In this document: positions 1 to 16,769 of the stretch, piece after piece
Position numbering within the stretch: the stretch's first letter is position 1
Layout of the letters: each line of letters opens with the position of its first letter
DNA from: Promethearchaeota archaeon
GTDB taxonomy: Archaea > Asgardarchaeota > Lokiarchaeia > Sigyniarchaeales > SOKP01
NCBI GenBank assembly: GCA_016930515.1
Contig: JAFGGO010000056.1
Span: 1-17,045 of the forward strand
Reading direction: 5' to 3'
DNA: 17,045 nt
Translations under genes and position numbers: made by a program
The notes under the pieces: model-generated
The model's input: the letters and a program-made list of their open reading frames with translations, nothing else
Databases searched by the model: none
Told to the model about the DNA's origin: nothing

Positions 1-162
1 CTGAAATTTTGCTTTTTTTTTTTTCTTCTTTCGAGTGATGGAAACAGAAAATCTGCTTAAATTACCTTTAGAACATTTACCAAAGGTTTTAATTAAAAAA
101 TAAGACTTTATCGATCAATAATACCAAGCTTTTTCCAAAATTAAGAATTAATAAATAGTATA

Positions 163-681
163 ATGTCAGAAAATGAAATTAAAGTCGGGGATAAGGCCCC
201 AGGATTTAAGTTAGAATCTTTTAACGCTGGAATTATCGATTTACACCAATTAGTAAAAGAAAAGAAGATCGTCCTTATTTTCTCAAGATATTTTGGGTGC
301 CCTTTATGTCAGCTCGATTTGAAAATCCTCTTAGACCATTCTGAAGCTTTAGAAAAGAAAGGTGTAAGAATTATCTACATCACCCAAAGCGAAGAGAAAA
401 TAGCGAAGGAATTCATCGAACAAAAAGGAATTACTTTTCCCGTTATTCCCAGCTCGAAGGATGAACTATATAAAAACTTTGGATTGGGTCTAATGACACC
501 AGAAGCGATGAAACAAGTTAAATCCAAATTTAAAACGGCAACTGATGCGGGATTCGTGCATGGTGAATACGAAGGATGGGAAAAACAAGGGCCAGGCCAA
601 TTTGTAATCGATACTGATGGTACAATAATCCACGCAAAGAAAGGATGGCTTGATGTTGACGCAATCATAGAAGTATTGTAA
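163..681 (+). CDS. Peroxiredoxin-like (AhpC/TSA, Prx-like2) thioredoxin-fold protein, copy A
   Basis: N-terminal 'VGDKAPGFKL', FSRYFGCPLC CxxC motif and 'QGPGQFVIDTDGTI' match the AhpC/TSA / Prx-like2 pattern. About 81% identical (139/172, hand count) to 11161..11679. Confidence 0.88.
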   Translation: MSENEIKVGDKAPGFKLESFNAGIIDLHQLVKEKKIVLIFSRYFGCPLCQLDLKILLDHSEALEKKGVRIIYITQSEEKIAKEFIEQKGITFPVIPSSKDELYKNFGLGLMTPEAMKQVKSKFKTATDAGFVHGEYEGWEKQGPGQFVIDTDGTIIHAKKGWLDVDAIIEVL

Positions 682-738: not shown

Positions 739-788
739 TTAGCTTTATTAACAGGAATCACCTTTTACTATCGTGAGATCGTTTTAGA
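739..788 (+). repeat. Dispersed ~51-bp intergenic repeat, copy R1 (most degenerate)
   Basis: ttagctttattaacaggaatcaccttttactatcgtgagatcgttttaga; retains the ACAGGAATCACCTTTTAC core and TGAG.TC.TTT tail of the consensus. Confidence 0.7.
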
Positions 789-915
789 TGCAATAAAGAT
801 TAATAAACAGTTTGTTTAACTTCTCAATCCAAATTTCAGATAATAAAGAAACATTATTTCACTTTTCTCTATGATTACTTTTTATACGATCCCCTTATCT
901 GTTAATTAATTAAAA

Positions 916-2169
916 TTGATAAAAAAGAATCGTGAAATAATGACATCCAAAAATACAAAAATCTTTATAATATCTATTATAATCATGGTGACAATTAGTA
1001 TTTCTGCTGTCTTGGTCCTACAAAATCAGAATTCCAATTCTATCGTATTCCCAAAGATCGATCGCTATCCCGATCCAGCGGACTATTCCTTCATAGGAGA
1101 TAGTTTAGGACCTGAATTCCCATCATACAATCCTAATTCGAGTGAACAATGGCAAGTTAATGTTCGCAGTTGCGATCTATCTGGATATAATTTGAGTGAT
1201 CGAGAATACGACTTAATGCATGCAAATTTTGATAATAAAACGGTTTGGCCAGAAATCCTTCCTGAAGCTTTCAATCCTGAAGAAATCATGGAATTGGGAA
1301 AAAATCCTGGGTTTGATTCGCGAACATTGCATCAGCAAGGAATAACAGGAAAGGGAGTTGGAATTGCGATCATCGATCAATGCTTGCTTGTAAATCATCA
1401 GGAATATTACGATAGAGTCAAGTTATACGAAGAAGTTGGCATAGGTAATGTCATTGCGTCAATGCACGGCTGTGCTTTAGCGTCGATAGCCGCAGGAGAA
1501 ACGGTCGGAATTGCTCCGGAAGCAGATTTATATTTTATGGCCGTTCAATTTTGGGAAACGGTTGAGAATGGCGGTGAATACACCACGATTTACGATTATA
1601 AGCATGTTGCGAGGGCAATTGACAGGATCTTGGAAATCAATAAGGTTTTACCAGAAGATCGCAAGATTCGGGTTATTTGCGTCGCTAAAGGCTGGAGTTC
1701 TGGCGAAATGGGATATGATGAAGTCGAAGCATCTATCAGGAAAGCGATGAAACAAGGAATCTTTTTCGTTAATTCCAATTTAGATAGACATTATCAATAT
1801 CCGTTCCACGGATTGGGGCGTCATCCCTTAAGCGATCCGAATAATTTCACGGAATATGAAGCGGGTTTATGGTGGCAAAACGCTCTAGCTAATGTTCCAG
1901 GTCGAGTTTTGGTCCCGATGGATTCCAGAACGACGGCAAGTCCAACAGGAATTGGCGATTACGTCTTTTATCGAGCAGGAGGATGGAGCTGGGCAATCCC
2001 GTACATCGCAGGAGCCTATGCTTTAGCCTGTCAAGTAGATCCAGCGATCACTCCCGCAAGATTTTTAGAGATCGCAATTGAAACGGGAGTACCGTTATTT
2101 TATCAAGGATATAACATTGGCAAGATAATCAATCCAAATCATATAATTGTATCAATACAAATTCCATAA
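916..2169 (+). CDS. Membrane-anchored or secreted S8 (subtilisin-like) serine peptidase, copy A
   Basis: N-terminal hydrophobic segment; GITGKGVGIAIID (Asp), MHG (His), GIAPEA and GGWSWAIP (Ser, variant of GTS.A.P). The true start may be the ATG at 940. Confidence 0.9.
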   Translation: MIKKNREIMTSKNTKIFIISIIIMVTISISAVLVLQNQNSNSIVFPKIDRYPDPADYSFIGDSLGPEFPSYNPNSSEQWQVNVRSCDLSGYNLSDREYDLMHANFDNKTVWPEILPEAFNPEEIMELGKNPGFDSRTLHQQGITGKGVGIAIIDQCLLVNHQEYYDRVKLYEEVGIGNVIASMHGCALASIAAGETVGIAPEADLYFMAVQFWETVENGGEYTTIYDYKHVARAIDRILEINKVLPEDRKIRVICVAKGWSSGEMGYDEVEASIRKAMKQGIFFVNSNLDRHYQYPFHGLGRHPLSDPNNFTEYEAGLWWQNALANVPGRVLVPMDSRTTASPTGIGDYVFYRAGGWSWAIPYIAGAYALACQVDPAITPARFLEIAIETGVPLFYQGYNIGKIINPNHIIVSIQIP

Positions 2170-2352
2170 TAAAACGAGAAAATTACCTAAAATTATTTAA
2201 CATCTTTTTATATTATTACAAAAAAGAGCTAAATCAATCTAAGATATTCACTTTTGATATGAAAGATTAAAATTGAATAAATATTTTCAACCATATCTTT
2301 CCTATTTTTAAGATAAGCACGACAAATAAAAAAATATATATAGGGTAATTGA

Positions 2353-2988
2353 ATGACAGCACAAGAACCAGATAGATTTTATTACCATGATCAGCACCTG
2401 GATCTTGTAGGAATCAGGGGTAATGATTTACCCATTCCAAGTGATTTTGGAATAGAAACCCATAGTAATGCCACGAATTGCTGGCGCGGATATGTAATGA
2501 GATATAAAATCGTTAGAAACAAATTGATCTTGGAAGGGTTTTGGTTCAATTCAAAAAGCGATAATCTTCCTGAAATTAACGGTTTAGGGCCCGTAAAAAC
2601 ATCAGAAATAAAATTTGAATCCATAATAACTTCTGAAGACTGGTTAAATCGTTCTTTTCAATACGAATATCGAAACCTTAATAAGATAATTCATTTTAAC
2701 GGGAGTCTTTGGTTAGGAAAGGATTTTATTCAATCAGAATACGTGCACATGGGTTTTCAAAGTCCCACTGCCTATAAAACCGTGCTTAAATTCGATTTTA
2801 AAGAAGGAATTATCGTAAGAGTTGAAGACAAATCCAAACAGGCTAATTCAGCTCGAGAAAGTGGCACTTGCAAGGAACCACAACCAGAATCAATGAAATC
2901 TGAGGATCTTGAAAAATGGATAGCAAAACGCTTCTCTTTAGATATTGATTTCTATAAAAAGAGGCAAAATGGGGAAAACGATAACTAA
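2353..2988 (+). CDS. Hypothetical protein (MTAQ.PD / T.CWRGY motifs)
   Basis: 211-aa ORF with normal globular composition; motifs MTAQEPD, TNCWRGYV and YVHMGFQS resemble a widespread uncharacterised family (from recall, not searched). Confidence 0.75.
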   Translation: MTAQEPDRFYYHDQHLDLVGIRGNDLPIPSDFGIETHSNATNCWRGYVMRYKIVRNKLILEGFWFNSKSDNLPEINGLGPVKTSEIKFESIITSEDWLNRSFQYEYRNLNKIIHFNGSLWLGKDFIQSEYVHMGFQSPTAYKTVLKFDFKEGIIVRVEDKSKQANSARESGTCKEPQPESMKSEDLEKWIAKRFSLDIDFYKKRQNGENDN

Positions 2989-3112
2989 AAACATGTCAAT
3001 ATCAGAATTTCCTTCCAAATCCAGAATATATTATCAATCCAATTAAAAAAATGGTTATCACCAACGAATCAACGAATAATTCAAGATTAACTTTTTTATT
3101 CTTGACTTGGTT

Positions 3113-3163
3113 TTGGTCTTGTTGATTGGAGTCACCGTTTACCCTTCTCAAATTCACTAAAGG
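3113..3163 (+). repeat. Dispersed ~51-bp repeat, copy R2
   Basis: ttggtcttgttgattggagtcaccgtttacccttctcaaattcactaaagg. Confidence 0.9.
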
Positions 3164-3194
3164 CTTGAGATAATAAAAGCATTAAAAAAAGCAA

Positions 3195-3533
3195 TTAGTC
3201 CCAAATAATTGATGCCGCACTGGCGATTTCGGTATCATTAGTTAAAATTGCCCTTGCGTTATAGCAACGATACAACGAAATTATCATCCTATCGTGGAGT
3301 TCCGGAACGGTCAATCCAGTAAAAATACGCCACGCGGGCATATCTAAATCAATTAATTCAAAGATCTCTCCATTCTCTAGTATTAAAAATATTAAATCGA
3401 TTTTTTCAATAGGAACATTCTTTCCAAAGATCTCCCTGCCTTTATAAATGGTATAGAGCGTTTCACCTAACGCAATTGAAGGTAATAGGAGTTTAGATTG
3501 CTTATTTTTGGCATCCTTGAATATCTTATCTGT
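3195..3533 (-). pseudogene. 5'-truncated PIN-domain (VapC-like) toxin, copy A (absent from the ORF track)
   Basis: Minus-strand translation TDKIFKDAKNKQSKLLLPSIALGETLYTIYKGREIF...PELHDRMII...ILTNDTEIASAASIIWD*; about 74% identical to PIN copy B over the last 84 aa. The N-terminal 'YVVD' motif is replaced by transposase sequence. Confidence 0.88.
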
Positions 3534-4856
3534 TTGTAAGCGGTCAGCGCTTTCAAGAGCACTAAGATGTAAATCAAGGATCGATGTCGAATCGCAGCGT
3601 CCATCCCACGGGTATTCATCCGATAGGCGTTATAATACATGTTATTGTATGAGTTTCCTTGCTCAATCATGGGTCGAAAACCATAAATCTTCAGGAACAG
3701 CTCGTCTGACCATTCTTTAGGAATGAAATCAGAATTAAAATAAAAGTCTTTTTTTAATTCCCTTATGGGGTGGGTTTTAAGGTTTTTCCTTGCCCGAATG
3801 ATGGGTACTAGCCCTTGATGCTGCATGGTTTTCATGGTTTGTAGAGAATATGGTCCGGAATCGGCAACGACAATCTTCCATTCGTAGTGTGTTGTTTGAA
3901 AAAATGCGGTCATGGTCTCTCTAAACGCAAGAATATCGTTCCGATTTCCAGCAAACATTTTAAAATACACGGATAACCAGCGACCAGCGATTAAAACAAT
4001 GAGCATGTAAAATGCCGGGATCGTAACCCACTCCTTTTTTTATTCCATTATGGCGGCAATAACCCGCATCGGGATCGTTATATTTAATGTTCCCCTTCTT
4101 TTTATTATTATTACAATTGGACTTAACGAACTGACCATCCCAAATCAGAATTTTTGGAACGATTATCCCATAAACCACGCATTCCTTTACCAATAATTGG
4201 AAGAACTCAAACAGGGCTGTTGCAGGAATTCGCGTTAAAACGTGACTAAGATCAGAGGCGTTGGGAAAGAACTCGTAGTCGTGTGTTACAGCATCTAACG
4301 GAGGGCATCTTATGAACTTGCTCATCTTCTCAATTCCCTTGTAATTCTTAAAGCCCAAGTTGATTCGAAGTAATTCGTACGCAATCACGTCTTCAATAAA
4401 CATGTTCTTAAACGAGACCCCTTCGTCCTCTAAAGTCCCCTGTAAGTCTTGGAAATAACTAAGATCGTTAAATTCAAACAAGTTCTCAAGAAATCCATCA
4501 AGTCCTTTAAGATATCGATGCATGTCCCATTCCATTTTAGAGATCGAATAGATACCGTGATCCTCAAAACGAGGGATTTTAACCCTTGGAAACCGATAAA
4601 TGTAATGCCCTCGCCTTTTGGGAAGCCAATTGATAAATTCTGGAATCCTTTTTTGAGATTTAGGCGGCGTGCTGTTGTTCTTTTTAACGTGCTTCCCCCA
4701 AACAGGATGAATCGAAATCCATCGAAATTTCTTTCGAGCGATCCTGTAATCTCGGGGAACGCTCATACCGTACCGCTCAACTGATCTCTTACCAATAAAG
4801 TCCGTCAATTGAGTCTGAAAAATACTGGGCAAGTCTTTATAGAGAATAATTATCAT
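3534..4856 (-). mobile_element. IS4/IS5-superfamily (DDE_Tnp_1-like) transposase pseudogene; frameshifted and 3'-truncated
   Basis: DDE motifs ILIWDGQ, DPDAG, VVADSG and a YREK-like YGFRPMIEQGN, split over ORFs 3960..4856 and 3467..4006. The frameshift is a 7-bp tandem duplication at 3977..3990. The C-terminus runs directly into PIN sequence at ~3533. No terminal inverted repeats found. Confidence 0.85.
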
Positions 4857-5160
4857 GGTGCGTCATTTTAGAGATCTATAATAAAGTATTAGTTAATCGC
4901 TTATTTATTTCTTTTGGTTAGGAATGAGAACTTAAGAGGGGCTTTTATTTATAAGATTCTCAAATTACTTGTTATTGTTCACGATAATTAAGAACCATTG
5001 TTTTAGCGGGTCATTTTCCTCCAGAAAAGATTTTTAAATTGTCGTCTTAGATGCCACGATATGATTCTCATAAGCACGGAATCGTTATAAAGGAAGTAAT
5101 TAATACGAGAATAAGGAAAAAAAAAGATTAAGATTTAAAATTTACTCAATTAGGAATTTT

Positions 5161-7137
5161 TTATTCATAATATCGATCTTCTGGTATTAAATTGGTACTA
5201 AAAGCGTTGTATCCTCCTAAATGTCTTCTGTCTTGACCAGAAGTAGTTCTAGTGAAAGTATGAGATAAAAGCATTGTATCTCCGGTTATTGAAAGTAAAC
5301 TCTGCGATGCTGAGAAATCAAATGCCATAGGAACACCCTTAATATTCAAAGAACCTTGCCCGCTAAATTTTAATTCAGAATGAGTTGAAAATTCCTTGCT
5401 CTCTTGCCAATCAATGTTATAATTATCATCAGGATCTGTTAAAGTAACTTTCTTTGGATTGTTTGTACCATCCATTTTATAAGCAACTTTAGCAGTTAAA
5501 GGCGATTCAAAAGGCTTTAATCCTATGGGATATCTTCTTGTATATTTGTCAGAAAAGCTCATATATTGAAATGCCATTGCATCAATATATTGTGTTGAAA
5601 ATGCACCATCAAACCAAAGATCAATATAACCACAAATATGTACGAACTCCAATTTTAGGTATACAACCACGGATTCTCCTCCCGAGGCAGTTACATCCCA
5701 AGTTTCAGATATGGTAGTAGTATGCCTTGTTGAAGATCCCGAAGCATAGTTTACTCCTAGATATGATTTTTCTCCCCCTAGTTTATAACCCATACTAATA
5801 TCCGAAGAGAATGTTGTGTCAATGGAATTAGAGTGTTTAAGTAAGAATCGATGCTCGTAATAATCTTCGCTTTCAATTAAAATCAGTGGTACATATGTAT
5901 CTATCCATTCAAATTTAAGTTTGTTGTTTCGATATACCCAATCAGGATAAATTGAATCTGTTAGTAATTTTATTTCGTTTACTATTGTTCGTGGTGAAGA
6001 AGGTAGAGAAGAAAAAACCATATCATAATACGTCATGCCATCTGACTGAGATCTTGCTATAATACTTATTCCGATATTACCAGTCAATTCTATTGAATCT
6101 ACAGGAACCCCCAGAATACCTTCGCTAATTTCTCTATCTGGTACAAAAAAAGGTGCTATTTTTGATTTATATATATTTCCAGATGAGTCATATCCCGTTA
6201 GTTGTATATCCCAGAATGCATCTTCAAGAAGAGCGGCATTAAGAAGCCCTCCTGGTAGGATTGCGTCGTTATTAACCGCCCCCCAAGGATATTCCCTTAA
6301 TTCGTAATCAATGTTGGAGAGCGAGGGAATTCCTGCCGCAGTCTCATATTTAACCTCTATATTCATATTAGAGTCGTATGATACACTCGCTTTATTCGGA
6401 GATAGGAGGTGAATTGGGTAATTAGATTCGTAGATGGCTTCCACGGTTGCTACATCGACTCGCATTTCCATTTTAGGGGGCCATTGTACATAATATGTCC
6501 ACCATAAAAACTGTATTGGTTGCATCCAGTGTTGCGCCCATGTGTAGACCATTACTGCACATTGTCCGTATTCATTTACATATTCGGTAAGGTCCGATTC
6601 TTCGTAATCAGAGCTGTCAAATTGGAAAGAAAGATACGAACTGAAGCTTTGTACATTGTCTTCCAACATTTCCCAAGATTCCTCTTTGAAGTTCCTGAGT
6701 TGAATGTCCACATGTCCTGTTGGATTTCCCAAATATGCCCACAATCGGAAATTGATCACTATATCCGATAGTGTTAAATCTTCGTACGGTCCCACGACAT
6801 CAAAATAATAGATATCGACCACTTCGAATCCGTCTACACCTAACCATGCGTGGTATCTATAGTGGTTAACGTTACCGTCAGCAGCGCTAGCCCAACCTGA
6901 AGGAAGCGTTGGATCGAAGTTATCTTGACCTTCCCTTATATAATCTTTTAAATAAAAGGTGTGAGGTTTTCCTAACGGTACTTGTGGTCCTTGAGAATAG
7001 TAGTATGTTGTAGCACTCGTTTTTACCTGTGTTTTTTCACTTAATATCGTGGTATCTTTAAAACCTAAAGTACTAAACGATAAGATCAATCCAAAAATGA
7101 CAAAAAGTGTAAAAATTGTTTTATTTATTTTTTTCAT
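5161..7137 (-). CDS. Secreted multidomain hypothetical protein (signal peptide; N-terminal domain paralogous to 13225..13989; Ig-like segment; Ser/Thr-rich beta C-terminus)
   Basis: 658-aa ORF; MKK followed by a hydrophobic signal; 'IHLLSPN...WDIQLTGYDSSGN' resembles an Ig-like domain; minus-strand T-tract downstream at ~5117..5125. Confidence 0.85.
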   Translation of the reverse strand: MKKINKTIFTLFVIFGLILSFSTLGFKDTTILSEKTQVKTSATTYYYSQGPQVPLGKPHTFYLKDYIREGQDNFDPTLPSGWASAADGNVNHYRYHAWLGVDGFEVVDIYYFDVVGPYEDLTLSDIVINFRLWAYLGNPTGHVDIQLRNFKEESWEMLEDNVQSFSSYLSFQFDSSDYEESDLTEYVNEYGQCAVMVYTWAQHWMQPIQFLWWTYYVQWPPKMEMRVDVATVEAIYESNYPIHLLSPNKASVSYDSNMNIEVKYETAAGIPSLSNIDYELREYPWGAVNNDAILPGGLLNAALLEDAFWDIQLTGYDSSGNIYKSKIAPFFVPDREISEGILGVPVDSIELTGNIGISIIARSQSDGMTYYDMVFSSLPSSPRTIVNEIKLLTDSIYPDWVYRNNKLKFEWIDTYVPLILIESEDYYEHRFLLKHSNSIDTTFSSDISMGYKLGGEKSYLGVNYASGSSTRHTTTISETWDVTASGGESVVVYLKLEFVHICGYIDLWFDGAFSTQYIDAMAFQYMSFSDKYTRRYPIGLKPFESPLTAKVAYKMDGTNNPKKVTLTDPDDNYNIDWQESKEFSTHSELKFSGQGSLNIKGVPMAFDFSASQSLLSITGDTMLLSHTFTRTTSGQDRRHLGGYNAFSTNLIPEDRYYE

Positions 7138-7164
7138 TTTTCTTCAATTTTCAAAGATTTTTGG

Positions 7165-7243
7165 CTCGTTTATCGATGTAAACGAGTCATGTTTAAACCA
7201 GATAAATCAGCATATAAAGGTAGTTGGTACAAAAGGGAATGAT
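7165..7243 (-). promoter_or_regulatory. Putative TATA promoter with a CTCGTTTA/TAAACGAG inverted repeat, upstream of the 658-aa gene
   Basis: Minus-strand TTTATATG at 7218..7211 and an 8-bp perfect inverted repeat at 7165..7186; the same block is conserved at 14008..14086. Confidence 0.65.
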
Positions 7244-7543
7244 CAAATTCTCAGTTTCCCTATTTACTCGAGATTTGAACGCAATTCTTCTCTGTTTCGT
7301 TTTAAATACGGCATTATGGAGATCTCTAATCATGAGATTAACACTTTATGGAAAACAATTAAATATTTAAATTCAATGTTTTCAATACGAAAAGAAAATT
7401 ATTTCAAATGTGTAGGATTTTAACCTAGGTTAATTCTTGTCAGTGATCTAATAAATAGGATAAATATCAAATTTAATTCTCTTTTTTTTTATTACTTCTT
7501 ATTTGTGTCAGAAGGGAATATGTGGCTCATTTTTGACCTATCT

Positions 7544-7594
7544 TTGGTCTTGTTGAAAGGGTTCACCTTTTATCCTGCTTTAGCTCAATTTATG
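7544..7594 (+). repeat. Dispersed ~51-bp repeat, copy R3
   Basis: ttggtcttgttgaaagggttcaccttttatcctgctttagctcaatttatg. Confidence 0.9.
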
Positions 7595-7825
7595 ATGATT
7601 TGAGGCGTATCGGCACGATATAACCAAGTCAATGATGCAATCTTTTTTGTGCGGGCAGGGTTCGTTTGTTAATATTTGAAAAATAAAGTATCTTGGGGCG
7701 AATAGATCTTAATTACCTGAACAGTAACTCAAAAACCTTAACATTCGTTCCAAGCGATTTTATATTGAAAAGATGATTAACATATAATACCTTTATACTT
7801 TTTTGTATAGAGTGTATTTAACGAA

Positions 7826-9169
7826 ATGGTTAAAATGAAATTTGTAAGAAAAAAGAAAGCAAAATTAGCACTCCTGAGCCTCTTTCTTGGATTATCCATT
7901 ATGTGCGGGACCGTGCGGTCCATCGTGGCAAGCAGTCCTGAAACAACAGTCATTGACGAACAATCCAATGTCATAGAAGAACAACCCGTCGACATAGACA
8001 TTTCTCAAGTCCCCAATCCCTGGAACTTAGACCCTTGGGATCTTCTCATCATTTACTCAAATCCTTGGGCCGATTTTGACGGCGACATGGCTGTTAATTG
8101 CTTGGAGGTATTATATGGAACGAATCCTGTAGATCGCGATTCGGACGGTGATGGAATGTGGGACGGGTACGAGATCTACGCCTGGAAGCAAGGTGGCTGG
8201 CAAAACCCCGTGGTGTACAACGAGCGTTATGCCGTATTACTCGCTGGCGGACTTAATAATAAACCAGAATTTTGGAATGAAATGGTTCGAATGTACGACA
8301 CACTAGTAAAAGGGTACAATTACAAGCCCGAAAACATCTGGGTGCTCTACGCGGATGGCAATCCTCCTAACGAAGATAATTTCGATCCAATCTCGAACTG
8401 GGATCTATCTTGGATTCTGAAGGATTCAGTTGAAACGCACGGAGAAATGATCAAGACCATGAGACCCGCAACCCCATTGAGCGTTTTTTTAAGTCTAACT
8501 GACCTTAGCAACAGGCTCACATCCGACGATTCCTTGTTCTTTTGGGTACACAATCACGGAGAAGGGGAACCTACCGCACCTAATGCTTCTATTTACCTCT
8601 GGGGAGAAGATGCATTCTTAACTGACGCAGAGTTAACGAGCTATTTCTTGAACGCTGAATTCGCTCAAGCAACTTTCGTCTTAGGTCAATGTTTCTCAGG
8701 AGGATTTTTAGATCCTTCTCTCTTAAGAGGAGGCGTTGATCCCTTGAGAGTTCATCCAGATGATTCAGACGATTATCTCAACCTTAACGACTTGGCACCA
8801 GACGGTACGAAAAACGTGATCGTGATGACTTCTCAAGACTGGTGTGAAACAGAATGTGATTATGATACTAAAGATTTCTTTATATATCCTTTTCGAAACA
8901 TGATCACTCCATATTGGTATGTCAATTGGTTGGATGAATTTAAACTTTATCCTAATGAATGGTTGAAAGGTGAATGGATTCTTGGTGTTTATGAAATAAG
9001 TTACGAATACTTGATGACTTTTCGAGCAGAATACTATCATAGGATAGATCCTGATGGCGTGGTCTCGATGTTAGAAGCGTTTTTTGGAGTATGGTTGCAA
9101 CATTATAATGCGGAAAATTATCAATATTGGGAGTCCGTTCCTGGCTTGGGCGCGAGAACTTACTTGTAA
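7826..9169 (+). CDS. Secreted clan CD cysteine peptidase (C13/legumain- or caspase-like) with TSP3-like Ca-binding motifs
   Basis: Signal peptide; DFDGD...GTNP.D.DSDGDG.WDG.E acidic repeat; RYAVLLAGG, DSLFFWVHNHG (His-Gly) and FVLGQCFSGGF (catalytic Cys) are typical of clan CD. Confidence 0.85.
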   Translation: MVKMKFVRKKKAKLALLSLFLGLSIMCGTVRSIVASSPETTVIDEQSNVIEEQPVDIDISQVPNPWNLDPWDLLIIYSNPWADFDGDMAVNCLEVLYGTNPVDRDSDGDGMWDGYEIYAWKQGGWQNPVVYNERYAVLLAGGLNNKPEFWNEMVRMYDTLVKGYNYKPENIWVLYADGNPPNEDNFDPISNWDLSWILKDSVETHGEMIKTMRPATPLSVFLSLTDLSNRLTSDDSLFFWVHNHGEGEPTAPNASIYLWGEDAFLTDAELTSYFLNAEFAQATFVLGQCFSGGFLDPSLLRGGVDPLRVHPDDSDDYLNLNDLAPDGTKNVIVMTSQDWCETECDYDTKDFFIYPFRNMITPYWYVNWLDEFKLYPNEWLKGEWILGVYEISYEYLMTFRAEYYHRIDPDGVVSMLEAFFGVWLQHYNAENYQYWESVPGLGARTYL

Positions 9170-9356
9170 TCTTAAATTATCCAACTTCTTTTTTTCTTCA
9201 ATTCTTATTGTTGCATGCTTGCTTTGATGAAATTTCGCCTGAAATCTTGCTCTCGTCTTCCAAATTTAGACGATATTTCACATTTCTCCATAATTCTTTT
9301 ATATAAGACCCATAAAGTTATTATTTATACTTAACAAAAAAAGAAACCGTGGTATT

Positions 9357-10562
9357 GTGAAGGGTATTCGTAATAAAATCGTTACTGTATCATCTATATT
9401 TATATTGATGATGGCAATCTGTATTGGGTTTATCGTGGTATCGCAAAATCAGGGAACGATCAAATAACTTTCCCAAAGATTGATCGTTGTCTCGATCCAG
9501 TAGATTTCTCCTTGATAGGAGATGGATTAGGATCAGAGTCTCCGTCTTACGACCCAAATTCAAGGAACAATGGCAAGTTGATGTGCGAAGTTGCGATCTA
9601 TCTGAATACGATTTAAGGGATCGAGAATACGATCTAATGTTCGCTGATTTTGATAGCAAGACCGTTTGGCTAGATGCCCTCCCTGATGCGTTTAAACCAG
9701 ACGAAATCAGGGAATTAGGAGAAAATCCGGGTTTTGATTCGCGGACATTACACTTGCGAGGAATAACTGGAAAAGGAATTGGCATTGCGATTATAGATCA
9801 AACTTTACTAGTTAACCATCAGGAATATAGTGATAGAGTTAGATTATACGAAGAGATTAACTTTGATGAGGATTGGGATGGATACACGCATGGATGTGCA
9901 GTAGCATCGATTGCGTCGGGTGAAACAGTTGGAATTGTTAATGAAGCCGAATTGTATTTTATGGCTGTTAATTTTCAGAGAATGGTTGGAAATACACCAA
10001 TTTTGGATTATAATTATATTGCTCGGGCGATTGACAGACTTGTGAAAATTAATAAGGATTTACCAGAAGAACACAGAATTCGGGTTACTTCTGTGGCTAG
10101 AGGCGGGGAGCTTGGCTATTTGGGATATGCCGAAGTAGAGGCGTCTGTCAGAAAAGCAATGGAACAAGGAATCCTTTTCGTTAATTCTAATTTAGATAGA
10201 TATTATGAATATCCGTTCCATGGATTAGGCCGTCAGCCTTTAAACGATCCCGATAATTTTATGGCATATGAAGCGGGATTATTCTGGCAGAATTTTCTAA
10301 CGAACGATCAAGATCGAATATTAATACCGATGGATTCCAGACGACAGCGAGTCCAACGGGGGTTGACGATTACTTTTTTTATAGAGCCTGAGGTTGGAGT
10401 TGGGCAATTCCATATATCGTAGGAGCCTACGCTTTGGCGTGCCAAGTTGACCTAGAAATCACTCCTGAAGAATTTGTAGAGATCGCAATAGAAACGGGAG
10501 TACCCTTGAATTACGAGGGATACGACATCGGAAAAGTAATCAATCCATTAACCCTTTTCTAA
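9357..10562 (+). pseudogene. S8 peptidase pseudogene, copy B
   Basis: Aligns end to end with 916..2169 but has 1-bp frameshifts at ~9453, ~9564 and ~10340, plus GGA>TGA at 10389..10391 just before the catalytic G-W-S-W. ORF 9487..10422 is only the middle part. Confidence 0.9.
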
Positions 10563-10566
10563 AACA

Positions 10567-10737
10567 TTAACTATCGTATATGTCTTCGGGGAACGAGCTA
10601 TCTTCATCGCTTTTTTCTTCGTCTTCTTTTTCGTTCCAATCCGCATCTTCCTCTCTTGTTTCTTTTTCCTCGCGATTTATATTTCTCTCGTTCCATTCGT
10701 CCGTTTTGATTTTTTTTCGGAATATTTTTTTTTTCAA
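10567..10737 (-). CDS. Small basic-then-acidic hypothetical protein (56 aa, absent from the ORF track)
   Basis: TTG start preceded by AGGAGA; MKKKIFRKKIKTDEWNERNINREEKETREEDADWNEKEDEEKSDEDSSFPEDIYDS*. It explains the Ser/Phe-rich shadow ORF 10580..10969. Confidence 0.55.
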   Translation of the reverse strand: MKKKIFRKKIKTDEWNERNINREEKETREEDADWNEKEDEEKSDEDSSFPEDIYDS

Positions 10738-10874
10738 TGTCTTTCTCCTAAATGCATTTTATACACAAGTTAAAATTCGTCAAGAGCACTTAAATGTGCT
10801 TGTTATAACTTATAATAGTGCTCCCGATTTTTTTCGTCAATCTAAGAAACGGAGTTATTTTAGAGGGAAAAATA

Positions 10875-10925
10875 TTGGTCTTATTGACAGGAATCATCCT
10901 TTACCATTCATGAGTTCATTAAGAG
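10875..10925 (+). repeat. Dispersed ~51-bp repeat, copy R4
   Basis: ttggtcttattgacaggaatcatcctttaccattcatgagttcattaagag. Confidence 0.9.
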
Positions 10926-11160
10926 CGCGATTGAAGGATTTCAACAAATATGATCAAGCCAAAAAGTGATTTAAATTGTTAGATCCCTAATCTCAATTTT
11001 GCGATTATGAAATCGTTTCGTTATGAAAGACTAGGATTTTTTCAATTAGAATAGAAAATGCGGATAAGGTTCCTTTAGAAAGTTTAATAAAGATTTAATT
11101 CAAGAAAAAACCATTATTATAGTATAAATCAAATATTTTTCTCTACTATTTGAATATATC

Positions 11161-11679
11161 ATGTCAGAAAAAGAAATTAAGGCAGGAGATATTGCTCCAG
11201 GTTTTAAGTTGAAATCTTATAACGCGGGAATTATCGATTTACACGAGTTATTAAAAAACCAGAAAGTTATCCTCATTTTCTCGAGATATTTTGGATGCCC
11301 TTTATGTCAGCTTGATTTGAAAACTCTCTTGAACCGTTCTGAAGAATTGGAAAAGAAAGGAGCAAGAATTATTTACATTACTCAGAGCGGAGAAAAAATT
11401 GCCAAAGATTACATCGCTCAAAAGGGAATTAAATTTCCCGTGATCCCCAGCTCAAAGGACGAGCTATATAAAAGTTATGGATTGGGATTAATAACGCTAG
11501 AGGCAATGAAGCAAGTCGGTTCCAAGCTTAAAGAGGCAAATGAAGCGGGATTCGTGCATGGAGAATACGAAGGATGGGAAAAACAAGGTCCCGGTCAATT
11601 TGTAATCGATAATGACGGCACGATAATCCACGCAAAGAAAGGGTGGTTAGATGTCGATGCTATCCTTGAAATCCTATAA
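11161..11679 (+). CDS. Peroxiredoxin-like (AhpC/TSA, Prx-like2) protein, copy B
   Basis: Same FSRYFGCPLC motif and same length as copy A; the upstream ~120 bp and downstream ~50 bp are also similar. Confidence 0.88.
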   Translation: MSEKEIKAGDIAPGFKLKSYNAGIIDLHELLKNQKVILIFSRYFGCPLCQLDLKTLLNRSEELEKKGARIIYITQSGEKIAKDYIAQKGIKFPVIPSSKDELYKSYGLGLITLEAMKQVGSKLKEANEAGFVHGEYEGWEKQGPGQFVIDNDGTIIHAKKGWLDVDAILEIL

Positions 11680-11842
11680 AAGTCCGAAATCACCAGGATA
11701 TTTTTAAATCTAAGAAAGATTAATCACTATCAGTTCATAATAACAAGGATTCTTAAGAATCGTTAAAATATTTGATTAGATTAAAATAGGAGTTAAACTT
11801 AATTAAGTACAATTACAAAACAATTGATATTGTAAGCTTAAA

Positions 11843-12022
11843 ATGGAGAAAAAATCAGAAAAATTTGGACTGAGAAAAAGATTAAGATTTTTTTACGGTA
11901 AATTTTTGAAATCCGAAGAGCTTCAACAAGAACAAAACTATGGCTTGGAAAACGACCGAAGACATTCGAAAGAAAATGAAAAAATAAGCGGATTCAAGAA
12001 AACGGAAGAAATTCCAGATTAA
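11843..12022 (+). CDS. Small charged hypothetical protein (59 aa, absent from the ORF track)
   Basis: MEKKSEKFGLRKRLRFFYGKFLKSEELQQEQNYGLENDRRHSKENEKISGFKKTEEIPD*; a purine-rich open frame filling the gap before R5. Confidence 0.4.
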   Translation: MEKKSEKFGLRKRLRFFYGKFLKSEELQQEQNYGLENDRRHSKENEKISGFKKTEEIPD

Positions 12023-12058
12023 CCTTAAATTATATAAGTTATGCCTTAAAATTTGGAA

Positions 12059-12108
12059 TTGGTCTTGTTCATGGGAGTCACCTTTTACTCGCTTGAGTTC
12101 ATTTTAAA
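12059..12108 (+). repeat. Dispersed ~51-bp repeat, copy R5
   Basis: ttggtcttgttcatgggagtcaccttttactcgcttgagttcattttaaa (1-nt gap versus consensus). Confidence 0.9.
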
Positions 12109-12263
12109 CTAATTAGATTTAATAGGGTCATCACGATGACTGATAAAATCTTCTTCTAGGTAAAACGGATAATTTTTTGAAAGAATTGTGAAATAGGTTC
12201 TAATTTGAATTATGGGTTTAGATAATTAGATTTGTAGTAATTAAGGAAATTTAAAATAAGATA

Positions 12264-12666
12264 TCATTCCCAAATAATTGTTGCTGCTTCTGCGATCTCA
12301 GCATCGTTAGTTAAAATTGCCTCCGCATTAAAACGCTTGTACATGGAAACTATCGTCCTATCGTGTAGTTCTGGAACGGTTAGTCCGCTAAAAATTCGCC
12401 ACGCGGGCACATCTAGACTAACTTTTTCGAAAATCTCTCCTTTTTCTAATGTTATAAATATTAAATCTATCTTTTCAATAGGAATGTTCCTTCCAAAAAT
12501 TTCCTTCCCTTTATAAATTATAGAGCGTTTCGCCCAACGCAATTGAAGGTAATAAGAGTTTAATTTGCTTTTTTTCAGCATCCTTGAGTATATTATCTGC
12601 GCCTTTTGGAAGCTTATCTGTTAAGAACGCTAAAAAAGCTACTGCATCAACGACGTAACTTTTCAA
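12264..12666 (-). pseudogene. vapC: PIN-domain (VapC-like) toxin, copy B, frameshifted
   Basis: TTG start 1 nt after the antitoxin stop gives MKSYVVDAVAFL...LLPSIALGETLY. A 2-bp deletion at 12518/12519 relative to copy A shifts the frame; the C-terminal HDR...ILTND motifs lie in ORF 12264..12581. Confidence 0.85.
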
Positions 12667-12667
12667 C

Positions 12668-12907
12668 TCAAATTCTCCATTTTTTTCTCTCAGATTGTAC
12701 GAAATCGATCGCCTTGTTTAGTTCGATCTCGTCTCTTAATAAGCCCCTTAGCATTCCAATGTGAGTCGTTTTTGGTTTAATCACGATTCCACCATCTTGA
12801 ATGTACAATAGTACTTCGTCTCCCTCATTTAGCTTGAGTTCGTCTCTAAAATCTTTTGGAATCGTGAGTTGCCCTTTCGTCGAAATTTTACAATATTTCG
12901 GCTTCAT
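12668..12907 (-). CDS. AbrB/MazE/SpoVT-family antitoxin
   Basis: KISTKGQLTIPKDFRDELKLNEGD is the canonical AbrB-fold signature, and the gene lies directly upstream of the PIN gene. Confidence 0.93.
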   Translation of the reverse strand: MKPKYCKISTKGQLTIPKDFRDELKLNEGDEVLLYIQDGGIVIKPKTTHIGMLRGLLRDEIELNKAIDFVQSERKKWRI

Positions 12908-12931
12908 TTATCAACATGCTTATAATGGACA

Positions 12932-12972
12932 TGTAAGGATATAAAACTTACTTTTTTAATTATAATCTTACA
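12932..12972 (-). promoter_or_regulatory. Putative TA promoter/operator: GTAAG-N9-CTTAC inverted repeat straddling a TATA-like box
   Basis: GTAAG 12933..12937 and CTTAC 12947..12951 flank minus-strand TTTTATATC; a further CTTACA lies at 12967..12972. Consistent with autoregulation by AbrB-type antitoxins. Confidence 0.45.
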
Positions 12973-12991
12973 ATTTTATTTTAACAAAACC

Positions 12992-13042
12992 TTGGTCTTG
13001 TTGATAGGAGTCGCCTTTTATCCATCTTAAGTTCATTTCAGG
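12992..13042 (+). repeat. Dispersed ~51-bp repeat, copy R6
   Basis: ttggtcttgttgataggagtcgccttttatccatcttaagttcatttcagg. Confidence 0.92.
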
Positions 13043-13224
13043 TTCACAAGTGGTGTTTTAGCATAATTAAATACCCAACATTTCAATCAAATGAGAGATA
13101 AAAGGAATAAAAACAACTCAGATTGTTTAAGAAAAAAAAATGACTATAATAACTCAATTAATTTGTGTTAGTTGCCACTTCGTAATTAACTTCAAGTCCG
13201 TTATCCAAGTAGTCATAATAATCC

Positions 13225-13989
13225 TTAGTATACCGAGATAGGAACTTCGCATAAATACCAGAGGTCTACATTGGCGCTAAACATTTTTATGGAAATTTCA
13301 GGCCACAACGTGCCAAATATGGGATATTGTGCCCAATATAAGGCGTACCAAGGACCTGCCAGACCCCAAAACCAGCCTACAATTTGTTGCTCGTTGTAAG
13401 CCCAGGCAAGTACCTGTATCTGAATTTTACCTTCGTCATTTATATAATTTAACGTATTCACAAGAACATCTATATCTTGAATCTGTTCGTTTATAGTAAC
13501 TCCCGAAAGCAAGTCGTATTTTAAAGTATCATAATTATAAATGCGTAATTGACACAAGTTAATCGAAGTGCGACTCCCTAAAATAAGACTATAATGAATG
13601 TGTATGTCAGCATCCTCAGTCTGACTTTCATTATCGTCTAATTGAAAAATCGAAGTTTCCGAGATTTCCAAGTAATTCTGCCAGCAGTCCGCTGTAACGT
13701 AATGATAACGCGTAAAAGCGTCATTGCGTTCATCTTCCCAGTTCTCATGTGTGAACGAATTGCGAATAGTGCCTTGGTTAAGGGCAAAGGATTGTGAAAT
13801 TAAATTACATTCCACAGATTCAATATAATATATGCTTGTACTAGTATTCAAATCCTGTTGTTGTTGAGATCCATATTCATCATTCCTAAGATTTATAGCC
13901 GTTATCGCAAATATTATTGGGAGGAAGATTGCTAAAAATATTAGACTAGATTTTATTTTGTTTTTATTTGAAATATTCATTTTTTTCAA
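13225..13989 (-). CDS. Secreted or membrane-anchored hypothetical protein, distant paralogue of the N-terminal part of 5161..7137
   Basis: N-terminal hydrophobic segment; shared motifs RYH, QLR.(F/Y), Y(V/I)N..G...(V)..WA and a Trp-rich loop followed by P.(M/I).(M/I)....A.V(E/D). Confidence 0.8.
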   Translation of the reverse strand: MKKMNISNKNKIKSSLIFLAIFLPIIFAITAINLRNDEYGSQQQQDLNTSTSIYYIESVECNLISQSFALNQGTIRNSFTHENWEDERNDAFTRYHYVTADCWQNYLEISETSIFQLDDNESQTEDADIHIHYSLILGSRTSINLCQLRIYNYDTLKYDLLSGVTINEQIQDIDVLVNTLNYINDEGKIQIQVLAWAYNEQQIVGWFWGLAGPWYALYWAQYPIFGTLWPEISIKMFSANVDLWYLCEVPISVY

Positions 13990-14007
13990 TTTTTATGGAT
14001 TTTCTAT

Positions 14008-14086
14008 CTCGTTTTTTCAATTTTAACGAGTTATGAAAGTAACTGAATATCCAGCATATAAAAGGAATTGGTAAAAAAGGGAATGA
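14008..14086 (-). promoter_or_regulatory. Putative TATA promoter with a CTCGTT/AACGAG inverted repeat, upstream of the 254-aa gene
   Basis: cagcatataaaaggaattggtaaaaaagggaatgat nearly matches 7208..7243; inverted repeat at 14008..14030. Confidence 0.65.
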
Positions 14087-14223
14087 TTAATTTTTACTTC
14101 GCCTTTTTTTTTTAACATGTGGAGCTTCAGAGGCTAGATTGGCTGGAAAGAGGCTCAGTTGATTGCCTATATAATTTTAATTGGACTTTTACCCGATTTT
14201 GCCCTTAGGATAGGTTTATATCT

Positions 14224-14274
14224 TTGATCTTGTCGACAGGAGTCACCTTTTACCCTGCCTGAGTTCATTTCAGG
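14224..14274 (+). repeat. Dispersed ~51-bp repeat, copy R7 (close to consensus; last copy seen)
   Basis: ttgatcttgtcgacaggagtcaccttttaccctgcctgagttcatttcagg; contains a GCCTGA-N7-TCAGGC hairpin that extends one base past the listed end. Confidence 0.92.
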
Positions 14275-14587: not shown

Positions 14588-14893
14588 TTAATTCATTGAC
14601 ATTCGACGATGGATCAACGACAAAAGCTCGGGCTTAACGTAGTTATCGGGCGGTCCATAGATGATTTGGTCTTCAAGATCTGATTTAGAGGCTTTCTCTT
14701 TACGACCTCTCAAGGTTAGTTTCTTTCCAAACTTCGTCTTAACTTTATCTTGCTTGCGATCGGTAAAAGTGCCTAATCCATAACTGTATTTCCAAGGTCG
14801 AACAGAATATTCCATTACATTCCTCATCCAACTATCTGCCTGATCTGTTTCGTAATCCCAGGTCGAGACAGTTTCTATTTCTGCTTTACTCAT
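14588..14893 (-). CDS. Hypothetical protein, 101 aa
   Basis: ATG preceded by purine-rich AAGGAAGTGA; GC content above the flanks; TATA-like TTTATAC about 65 nt upstream. Confidence 0.65.
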   Translation of the reverse strand: MSKAEIETVSTWDYETDQADSWMRNVMEYSVRPWKYSYGLGTFTDRKQDKVKTKFGKKLTLRGRKEKASKSDLEDQIIYGPPDNYVKPELLSLIHRRMSMN

Positions 14894-15041: not shown

Positions 15042-15049
15042 TTATCTAA

Positions 15050-15086
<37 letters not shown>

Positions 15087-15198
15087 GGAAGATTTCCCAT
15101 CATAATTTTTATAAGGAATGGCAACAAGAAAAGCAAGTTTTAAAAATTTAAAAAATAAAAATGATTACAAATAATAATTTCACAATTTAAAATTAGAG

Positions 15199-15702
15199 TT
15201 GAAGAGATTGAAAACGCTTGTAACTTATATGTCACAAACAGGCAATACGAAAAAGATTGCTGAAGCAATATTTGAAACAATTTCAGGAGATAAAGAGATT
15301 AAACCATTGAACGAAGTTGAAAGCTTGGAGAATTATGGATTTACATTTATAGGGTTTCCGATTCATCAAATGGGACCACCACAACTAGCGTCAAAGTTCA
15401 TTGAAATAAAAGCAAAAAATCGAAAAATAGCGCTTTTTGTTACCCACGCTTCTCCTCCAGGATCACCATTCATTGACCCTTTATTAGCTAAATGTAAAGA
15501 ATCTACCAATGCTTCGGAAATGTTCGGTATTTATGACTGTCAAGGAGTACTTGCCCAACAAGTAGCAGATATGCTCCTAAAAATGGATAATCCTCAAGCC
15601 CAACAATTTGGAAAATTAAGAAATCTAACAGTTGGACATCCAAACGAACAAGAACAAGAAAACGCTCGCAATTTCGCAAGAGAAATGATGGAAAAACTTT
15701 AA
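15199..15702 (+). CDS. Flavodoxin-family protein
   Basis: FMN phosphate loop YMSQTGNTKKIAEAI, plus FIGFP, ALFVTH, CQG and HPN...A..FA motifs. The start may be the TTG at 15208. Confidence 0.9.
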   Translation: MKRLKTLVTYMSQTGNTKKIAEAIFETISGDKEIKPLNEVESLENYGFTFIGFPIHQMGPPQLASKFIEIKAKNRKIALFVTHASPPGSPFIDPLLAKCKESTNASEMFGIYDCQGVLAQQVADMLLKMDNPQAQQFGKLRNLTVGHPNEQEQENARNFAREMMEKL

Positions 15703-15860
15703 TATTTTTTTTTCTATATTCATCGAAAATTATATAAAATCAAAAATGAACTATAAACTCAATAAACATCTTGATTTCACGATGATTTAAAAAGGAGATA
15801 AATTTAGGAGAGAGAACAATCCTAACAAATAATAATGAATCGAATTCAAAAATATTAAAG

Positions 15861-16769
15861 ATGAAAAAATTTAAATTTAAAAAAATAGATGCTTTTGCCT
15901 CAACAAAATCAGAGGGTAATCCTGCTGGATGTATTTATCTTGAATCAGGAGAAGATATAACATCATATGAAATGAAACTTATTGCTAAAGAGTTAAAAGG
16001 ATTTGTGAATGAAGTTGGATATATTAAAAGGATTGGCAATTATGAATTTAACTTAAAATATTATTCTTCTGAAAGAGAAGTAGATTTTTGTGGACATGCA
16101 ACAATAGCAATAATGTACGATTTAATAAAAAATGATAAAACACTAATTGATTCAAGTTTTCTGACGGTTATGACAAAAAGAGGGAATTTAACGGTTGAAA
16201 ATAAAATATTAAATGAAGATTCCGTTTTTATCACGTCTCCTATACCTCAAGAAACTGTTATTGTTCCAACAATTCTTGATATTATATCTGCTTTAAATGT
16301 CAGAGAGGAAGAAATAGAAACAATACTTCCTATTAAAATTATAAACGCTGGATTGACAACTTTAATAGTTCCCATTAAATCACTTGAAATACTAATCAAG
16401 ATAATGCCGAATTTCAATGTTTTAAAGAATTTTTGTTTAAGTTCAGAGATAGATATTATCGAGGTCTTCACGAATGATGTTTCAAATAGTAATAATAATT
16501 TCAGAGTAAGAGTTTTTGCTCCTACTTTTGGTTATCTTGAAGATCCAGCAACCGGTTCAGGAAATTCTGCATTTGGATACTATCTAATACAAAATGAATT
16601 ATGGAATGATGATACTATAAAAATAGAACAAAATAGATTACGTGATGAATATAATCTCGTGAAATTACGAAAAAAGCAAGATGATAGTGGTATTGAGCGA
16701 GTATTATTTGGTGGTGGAGCAATAACAAGAATTGAAGGTGAATATATGATTTATCCTCAAGAAAAATAA
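15861..16769 (+). CDS. PhzF-family (phenazine biosynthesis-like) isomerase/epimerase
   Basis: IDAF...GNPA, EVDFCGHAT and RVFAP.FG..EDPATGS signature motifs. Confidence 0.93.
   Translation: MKKFKFKKIDAFASTKSEGNPAGCIYLESGEDITSYEMKLIAKELKGFVNEVGYIKRIGNYEFNLKYYSSEREVDFCGHATIAIMYDLIKNDKTLIDSSFLTVMTKRGNLTVENKILNEDSVFITSPIPQETVIVPTILDIISALNVREEEIETILPIKIINAGLTTLIVPIKSLEILIKIMPNFNVLKNFCLSSEIDIIEVFTNDVSNSNNNFRVRVFAPTFGYLEDPATGSGNSAFGYYLIQNELWNDDTIKIEQNRLRDEYNLVKLRKKQDDSGIERVLFGGGAITRIEGEYMIYPQEK

What the first reader, a model, noticed from the sequence alone, without database searches (positions are those of the whole stretch)
739..14274. Candidate cassette array: seven co-oriented copies of an unrecognised ~51-bp site divide the region into gene modules
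Seen: consensus TTGGTCTTGTTGAnAGGAGTCACCTTTTACCCnnCnTGAGTTCATTTnAGG at 739, 3113, 7544, 10875, 12059, 12992 and 14224. All copies are on the same strand and between the supported genes. They occur between tandem, convergent and divergent gene pairs alike, so they do not track transcription direction as promoters or terminators would. Start-to-start intervals are 2374, 4431, 3331, 1184, 933 and 1232 bp. The modules are [S8+hyp], [PIN'+IS+secreted], [C13+S8 pseudo+small ORF], [Prx+small ORF], [PIN-AbrB] and [secreted]. Established: integron attC arrays and Xer/pdif modules have this architecture, including TA cassettes. This site lacks the attC RYYYAAC/GTTRRRY ends and the 11-6-11 dif layout. 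Inference: it is the recombination or attachment site of an undescribed gene-capture/shuffling system whose recombinase is encoded outside the window.
Basis: partly seen in the sequence, partly recalled or inferred. Interest (0 to 1): 0.9.

Follow-up and report, generated by a model that had tools for sequence, protein, structure and literature searches.

The report
Gene cassettes stacked behind archaeal RNA
The repeat is a copy of the tail end of an uncatalogued small structured RNA gene, and in two species of Loki-type Asgard archaea a row of different accessory genes has built up behind that gene with a tail copy at most joints, like an integron but with no known site or enzyme.

Summary
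Observation confirmed: seven co-oriented ~51-bp copies, plus one more in this 4.0-Mb Lokiarchaeial (Promethearchaeota) genome. That eighth copy (contig C20, which overlaps the window's start) is the 3' end of a ~130-nt structured RNA-like gene found across the whole family, absent from Rfam, with covarying stems. Each repeat is 28 bp of that gene's 3' end, a variable 8-9 bp, and a box B found only in array-bearing genomes. The closest GTDB relative has a six-site array behind the same gene with mostly different cargo; homology breaks at the first site. Paralogous modules in the window lie in different orders. The site is not attC, not a dif-type palindrome, not dispersed. No recombinase lies beside either array, no enzyme was identified, the crossover is unmapped, and the source sample's contigs show no excision joints. 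This array looks decayed. Best reading (0.6): integrase-free mini-islands stacked by site-specific integration at a small-RNA gene, like Dehalococcoides ssrA islands, but cassette-sized and on an uncatalogued RNA. This scan already noted the RNA alone, and non-attC Asgard arrays, on other DNA; I found no note linking the two.

The parts
1..27 (.). Overlap with the end of contig C20 (reverse strand), across a poly-T run. C20 carries the anchor RNA gene (C20:3357-3226), site R0, a Big_7/C13-type secreted protein gene and a zinc-ribbon gene, which form the first 3.2 kb of the array
163..681 (+). Peroxiredoxin-like (AhpC/TSA) gene, copy 1; no site upstream, apparently lost by a deletion at a short microhomology
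739..788 (+). Site R1 (most degenerate copy)
916..2988 (+). Module: subtilase S8 copy 1 (916-2169) and a 211-aa hypothetical gene (2353-2988)
3113..3163 (+). Site R2; similarity to the RNA gene extends upstream through the last hairpin
3182..3532 (-). PIN toxin copy 1, 5' part missing where an IS-like element begins
3467..4856 (-). Split DDE transposase (weak IS1634/IS5-type match; single copy; ends not found)
5161..7137 (-). Secreted 658-aa protein, related at its N-terminus to the Big_7/C13-type cargo family of both arrays; no site between it and the IS
7544..7594 (+). Site R3; includes the RNA's last hairpin upstream
7826..9169 (+).
9350..10550 (+). Subtilase S8 copy 2, broken (76% nt identity to copy 1); no site between it and the preceding gene; bounds approximate
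10875..10925 (+). Site R4
11161..12022 (+). Module: peroxiredoxin-like copy 2 (11161-11679; 81% nt identity to copy 1) and a 59-aa ORF (11843-12022)
12059..12108 (+). Site R5
12264..12907 (-). AbrB/MazE antitoxin (12668-12907, intact) and frameshifted PIN toxin copy 2 (12264-12666)
12992..13042 (+). Site R6
13225..13989 (-). Secreted 254-aa protein; upstream region homologous to those of the two other secreted-protein modules
14224..14274 (+). Site R7, last detectable copy; carries both box A and box B
14588..14893 (-). 101-aa ORF shared with the distal end of the sister species' array (55% aa); not found in the other four congeners; old cassette or flank

Best explanation
The repeat is an attachment-type site made of the last ~28 bp of a conserved small structured RNA gene (box A), a variable 8-9 bp, and a conserved box B with a short tail. 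In the lineage of this genome and its closest GTDB relative, accessory DNA packets of 0.5-4 kb were repeatedly inserted in one orientation at that gene's 3' end, leaving the gene intact and one more site at each joint. This is tandem integration at a small-RNA gene, as at tRNA/tmRNA genes, but with integrase-free cassette-sized units. The enzyme acted in trans or has been lost; this genome's array is decaying. Shown: the anchor, the site anatomy, different cargo and order behind the same anchor, absence of a flanking recombinase. Inferred: that insertion was by site-specific recombination through circles, where the crossover lies, which enzyme did it, and that the anchor is transcribed.
For: (1) The only other copy in the genome is the 3' end of a full-length element, on a contig that overlaps the window start. 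(2) The element is in 86/90 family genomes by BLAST and 25/25 by covariance model, with 97.5% pairing and 19 double-sided changes, 0/500 shuffles as high. (3) G003 and a 663-kb contig of the same species carry anchor + 5 sites with SIR2-TPR, Big_7, membrane, DUF3795, barstar and hydrolase cargo; upstream homology to G000 ends at box B of the first site. (4) In the window, order is Prx-S8-PIN-secreted in the first half and S8-Prx-PIN-secreted in the second, each family keeping its orientation, with sites at the changed joints. (5) Differences among copies are unevenly spread (p=0.0013) and the pattern correlates between the two arrays (rho 0.41), while most flanks do not align: constraint on boxes. 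(6) At two diagnostic positions each genome's copies match its own anchor (7/8 and 8/8 against 6/6 and 0/6), so sites were copied or homogenised after the species split. (7) Box A followed by box B occurs in only 2 of 154 genomes of the order. (8) Precedent: Dehalococcoides ssrA carries tandem islands bounded by a 20-bp copy of its 3' end, 15 of them without an integration module (PMC3146451).
Against: No integrase beside either array; none shared by the two genomes. Only two species, and the two assemblies of the sister species are identical over the array. Contigs of the source sample show no joint at any site (contigs drop rare variants). The one shared cassette (zinc ribbon) has no flanking sites in G000, and homologs elsewhere lie without sites. 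Left and right edges of similarity are ragged. Which side of the site travels with a cassette is unresolved (p about 0.05 both ways). A closer relative (GCA_016839425.1) lacks the RNA gene at this locus rather than showing a clean empty site.
Confidence: 0.6

Rival explanations
1. Copy-on-insertion, CRISPR-like: the ~50-80 bp around the RNA 3' end is a target that is duplicated each time foreign DNA is put in (by a transposase-, Cas1- or repair-type reaction); cassettes carry no site of their own and cannot be re-excised except by homologous recombination.
For: First and last copies both have box A and box B; copies match the resident anchor at diagnostic positions; edges are ragged; in G003 the first two sites are 94% alike.
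Against: Box-wise conservation suggests continued selection on internal copies; no decay gradient from the anchor in G000 (739 is the worst, 14224 among the best); Cas1 found only in G000, one beside an RT at a CRISPR-type locus; each gene family keeps one orientation.
Confidence: 0.15
2. Host XerA recombines the sites (IMEX or pdif-like), using box B and its tail as a degenerate core.
For: XerA is the only tyrosine recombinase found in G000. A few copies show a weak dyad starting at box B with 13-14 bp between the arms (read). Earlier notes report XerA/dif-like arms in other Asgard arrays (unchecked).
Against: Best mean arm match over all 11-bp arm layouts is 5.2/11; no conserved dif was found to compare; XerA is also in congeners without arrays and was not found in G003 (83% complete).
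Confidence: 0.12
3. The repeats are relics of tandemly duplicated RNA genes or are reused terminator/3'-processing signals in an ordinary accessory-gene hotspot; shuffling is by homologous recombination between them.
For: The RNA gene is multicopy in many family members; box A ends in a T-run; variable genes also lie behind the RNA gene in some relatives where no 3'-end array was detected; cargo families have site-free paralogs elsewhere.
Against: All 12 internal copies lack the 5' two-thirds including the invariant motif, yet keep box B, which lies beyond the T-run and is missing from array-free genomes; copies ignore the direction of the neighbouring genes.
Confidence: 0.1
4. A degenerate CALIN: the sites are attC or delta-attI sites of an archaeal integron whose intI is elsewhere or lost.
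For: Same architecture; archaeal integrons are enriched in Asgard and most are CALINs (PMC9668308); box B contains GTT in 11 of 14 copies; cassettes bounded by attI pieces exist (PMC12901181).
Against: No RYYYAAC/GTTRRRY pair bounds any copy on either strand; no consensus hairpin (-1.7 kcal/mol; single copies mostly z near 0); no IntI; cargo lies on both strands.
Confidence: 0.03

Closest known systems
Dehalococcoides ssrA genomic islands (McMurdie et al. 2011, PMC3146451)
   Same: Tandem units downstream of a non-tRNA structured RNA gene, each bounded by a direct repeat of the gene's 3' end; content varies between genomes; some units have no integration module.
   Different: There the target is tmRNA, the repeat is 20 bp, and 16 islands carry the serine integrase module dsiB/dsiA. 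Here the target is an uncatalogued archaeal RNA, the repeat is ~51 bp and runs past the gene's end, units are 0.5-4 kb, and none carries an integrase.
tRNA/tmRNA-targeting genomic islands (Islander, PMC4383910)
   Same: An intact RNA gene followed by displaced 3' fragments in the same orientation; tandem arrays occur.
   Different: Islander islands need a tDNA target and an on-board tyrosine integrase, and tandems of three or more are rare (4 in that database). Here 7 and 5 fragments follow a non-tDNA gene with no integrase.
Sedentary integrons and CALINs, including archaeal ones (Ghaly et al. 2022, PMC9668308)
   Same: Fixed anchor, directional row of small gene cassettes with one site per joint, toxin-antitoxin and secreted-protein cargo, no adjacent integrase.
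   Different: No attC ends or fold, sequence-conserved sites that copy the anchor, cargo on both strands, no IntI.
Xer/pdif modules and IMEX elements (from established knowledge)
   Same: Integrase-free modules that rely on a host recombinase in trans.
   Different: No 11-6-11 dyad; all sites in one orientation; site derives from an RNA gene, not from dif.

Membership tests
Integron / CALIN | attC ends RYYYAAC and GTTRRRY bounding the site | tested here: not met
   no pair bounds any of 14 copies on either strand
Integron / CALIN | Conserved single-strand hairpin with extrahelical bases | tested here: not met
   no consensus fold
Integron / CALIN | IntI integrase in cis or in the genome | tested here: not met
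   only XerA passes a curated cut-off (assembly 94% complete)
Integron / CALIN | Directional array of variable gene cassettes | tested here: met
tDNA/ssrA-type integrated islands | Intact RNA gene plus co-oriented 3' fragments downstream | tested here: met
tDNA/ssrA-type integrated islands | Target is a tRNA or tmRNA gene | tested here: not met
   no Rfam match above chance, no ARAGORN gene on C20 or C106
tDNA/ssrA-type integrated islands | Cognate tyrosine or serine integrase on at least some units | tested here: not met
tDNA/ssrA-type integrated islands | Empty site or excised circle with one hybrid site | tested here: inconclusive
   no joints, but contigs only; closer relative lacks the RNA gene at this locus
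Xer/pdif or IMEX | 11-6-11 dyad with XerA/XerC/XerD arms | tested here: not met
   best mean arm match 5.2/11
Xer/pdif or IMEX | Similarity to the host's own dif | tested here: inconclusive
   no conserved dif identified
REP / MITE / IS end | Dispersed copies in both orientations | tested here: not met
   all eight copies in one locus, one orientation
CRISPR array | Short spacers of even length and adjacent cas genes | tested here: not met
   intervals of about 0.5-4.4 kb hold genes; cas1 on other contigs and not found in G003
Structured non-coding RNA gene (anchor) | Covarying secondary structure conserved across genomes | tested here: met
   G-U pairs fit the strand on which the repeat reads
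Structured non-coding RNA gene (anchor) | Transcript with defined ends | not testable with these tools
   no RNA holder listed for the window stretch; the anchor itself was not searched

The most novel reading that the evidence does not exclude
A dedicated archaeal gene-capture platform in which the 3' end of a new family-wide small RNA (carrying an invariant Sm-site-like U-rich motif) serves as the primary insertion site, every captured gene packet receives a copy of it, and a recombinase of a class not recognised by tyrosine, serine, IS110 or Cas1 profiles, or host XerA in a new role, inserts and reorders the packets.
Probability: 0.25. Interest if true: 0.85.

Novelty: new variant of a known kind. 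Interest (0 to 1): 0.66.

Why it matters
It suggests how an integron-like array can arise without integron parts: by co-opting the 3' end of a resident RNA gene as the repeated site. It bridges tRNA/tmRNA-island accretion and cassette arrays, in Asgard archaea, where attC- and tDNA-based tools would miss it. It also gives a search rule (look for 3' fragments of unannotated RNAs) and ties a family-wide uncatalogued Lokiarchaeial RNA to genome plasticity. Limits: two species, no enzyme, no direct sign of present activity.

Tried and rejected
Rfam: nothing in the window, one chance-level hit on C20 away from the anchor. attC ends and fold: absent. Recombinase hunt: tyrosine (G000 XerA only; G003 one divergent enzyme with no G000 homolog), resolvase (one beside a transposase-like gene, one fragment), large serine (none in G000 or G003), IS110 (none), Cas1 (G000 only). 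A retron-like RT is shared by both genomes but unlinked, and box B lies beyond the RNA's T-run, so an RNA-templated route was set aside. HUH and other DDE families were not searched genome-wide. Pattern scans of viral and metagenome collections gave nothing or chance hits in bacterial coding DNA; GTDB gave only the G003 record and one single hit in a Peribacteria contig, not followed. A dif candidate on C94 lies inside a gene and is not conserved; similar motifs in G022 belong to an unrelated 315-bp tandem repeat. Same-contig pairs of RNA 3' ends in other genera proved to be mostly full-length or shortened paralogs. A tree of the 14 sites has no supported branch. Crossover mapping by paralogous modules was inconclusive. 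No RNA holder listed; the two metatranscriptomes laid gave only short pieces. Paper searches found no description of this RNA or array (the library is incomplete).
Full report
Observation. The window is the whole of contig C106 of a 4.0-Mb, 94%-complete assembly. Neighbouring genes and the record title of the closest relative place it in Promethearchaeota (Lokiarchaeia). A profile of the seven copies finds one more copy in the genome, on C20, and nothing else below E=1, so the repeat is not dispersed.

The eighth copy is the key. On C20 the repeat is the 3' end of a ~130-nt element (C20:3357-3226). This element is found in 86 of 90 family genomes by BLAST and 25 of 25 by covariance model, with no model hit outside the family in 125 genomes of the phylum sample (one genome of the order has a strong BLAST hit). 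It occurs in one to six dispersed full-length copies, most often between a membrane-protein gene and a radical-SAM gene. It has a closing stem, two hairpins, an invariant U-rich motif, a pyrimidine tract, and ends in three unpaired bases and a T-run. Pairing is 97.5% with 19 double-sided changes; no shuffle of 500 reached this (related sequences inflate such tests, but the slid controls fall to 32-48%). G-U pairs fit the strand on which the repeat reads. Rfam and ARAGORN do not know it. That it is transcribed is inferred, not shown.

Anatomy of the site. Box A (28 bp) is the RNA's last hairpin arm, 3' stem strand and T-run. Then come 8-9 variable bases, box B (GAGTTCA) and a partly conserved tail. 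Some copies also keep 10-25 bp further upstream. Box B is not seen behind the RNA gene in other genomes: box A followed by box B is found in 2 of 154 genomes of the order. Differences are unevenly spread over columns (p=0.0013) and correlate between the two arrays, which points to constraint. The site has no attC ends, no consensus fold and no dif-like dyad.

The whole array in this genome. The end of C20 (reverse strand) overlaps the window's first 27 bases across a poly-T run (an inferred join). The order is then: radical SAM, LRR gene, RNA/R0, Big_7-C13 secreted gene, zinc-ribbon gene, Prx1, R1, S8 + hypothetical, R2, truncated PIN + IS + secreted gene, R3, 447-aa gene + broken S8, R4, Prx2 + small ORF, R5, PIN-AbrB, R6, secreted gene, R7, 101-aa ORF. 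Four gene families occur twice or more at 74-81% nucleotide identity, always in the same orientation but in a different order: Prx-S8-PIN-secreted, then S8-Prx-PIN-secreted. Several expected joints have no site; the zinc-ribbon/Prx1 joint looks like a deletion at a short microhomology. Both PIN genes and one S8 are broken. The array appears to be decaying.

The sister species. G003, the closest GTDB relative (radical SAM 93% against 83% for the others), has six sites. A 663-kb contig of the same species (GCA_048941705.1) gives the unbroken locus: radical SAM, a 492-aa gene, RNA/R0, SIR2-TPR, R1, Big_7-C13, R2, 81-aa membrane protein, R3, zinc ribbon, R4, Big_7 + two small genes, R5, barstar + hydrolase, then the homolog of the 101-aa ORF. 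Homology with G000 runs through the RNA gene and stops at box B of R0. The zinc-ribbon gene (63% aa) and the secreted-protein family are shared inside the arrays. Its sites are 88% alike, against 72% in G000 and 74% between genomes. At two positions each genome's copies match its own anchor, which needs copying or homogenisation after the split. The two assemblies of that species are identical over the array. A relative closer to G000 (GCA_016839425.1) has the radical-SAM and LRR genes but no RNA gene behind them. In 121-135 family genomes no other contig showed a row of 3' fragments (the last part was not listed).

Enzyme. None lies beside either array. G000 has one tyrosine recombinase, an unlinked XerA. 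G003 has one divergent tyrosine recombinase without a G000 homolog. No large serine recombinase or IS110 transposase was found in either; Cas1 only in G000. Both assemblies are incomplete. Contigs of the probable source sample show no joint at a site, which does not exclude rare circles.

Mechanism. The geometry, an intact RNA gene followed by co-oriented copies of its 3' end, is the signature of integration at tRNA and tmRNA genes (PMC4383910). The nearest described case is the tandem ssrA islands of Dehalococcoides, 15 of which lack an integration module (PMC3146451). I rate repeated site-specific integration by a trans-acting or lost recombinase at 0.6, target duplication on insertion at 0.15, XerA at 0.12, relics or terminators with homologous shuffling at 0.1, and a degenerate CALIN at 0.03. 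Whether the site travels at the start of a cassette (island-like) or at its end (integron-like) could not be settled.

Membership and novelty. It works like an integron array and like tandem tDNA islands but fails defining tests of both (no attC or IntI; target not a tDNA; no on-board integrase). I found no paper on this RNA or array. This scan's earlier notes describe what appears to be the same RNA alone in other genomes and non-attC cassette arrays in other Asgard lineages; these are unchecked leads, and a sequence look-up of this site found no other window. Verdict: real feature, new variant of a known kind, interest 0.66.

Noticed in passing
L001:3226-3357 (G000 C20) and homologs L050-L078, L109-L137: Family-wide uncatalogued structured RNA with an invariant motif containing an Sm-site-like run (A, five U, G), a pyrimidine tract complementary to Shine-Dalgarno-like sequence, and in many copies a 5' leader complementary to that tract. 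The Sm link is a resemblance from memory, untested.
   Followed up: partly
G000 C110:8021-8157 (minus strand): Second, divergent full-length paralog of the RNA with compensatory changes in the closing stem; no sites follow it.
   Followed up: partly
L171:9487-9507, L172:9142-9160, L174:3798-3823; G000 C157:106-129: Short copies of the RNA's 5' part; in three loci they lie inverted a few hundred bases upstream of the gene. Unexplained.
   Followed up: no
L161:5202-5300 and 7834-7932; L162:4486-4572 and 6391-6477: Shortened (87-99 nt) paralogs of the RNA that keep the closing stem and 3' end, in tandem pairs.
   Followed up: no
L157:886-2346 (G000 C170) and L155:886-2346 (G003 C423): Shared retron-like reverse transcriptase (St85-type, just under the cut-off) with repeated non-coding segments downstream.
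   Followed up: partly
L156:1228-3679 (G000 C79): Reverse transcriptase next to cas1, suggesting an RT-Cas1 adaptation module.
   Followed up: no
L101:1015-2037 (G003 C145): Divergent 340-aa tyrosine recombinase behind two small regulator-like genes; no homolog in G000.
   Followed up: partly
window 11735-11790: Weak resemblance to site R1 just after Prx2 in a global alignment; possibly a decayed site, below the weight-matrix threshold.
   Followed up: partly
L191:200-850 and L192:218-851 (G022): A 315-bp non-coding tandem repeat with an internal palindrome, at contig ends; unrelated to this site.
   Followed up: partly
window 15043-15090: Run of TTA/TAT triplet repeats where the sample's contigs break.
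   Followed up: no
window 15199-16769: Flavodoxin and PhzF-like genes follow the array; the sister species has other genes here, so the region stays variable beyond the last site.
   Followed up: partly
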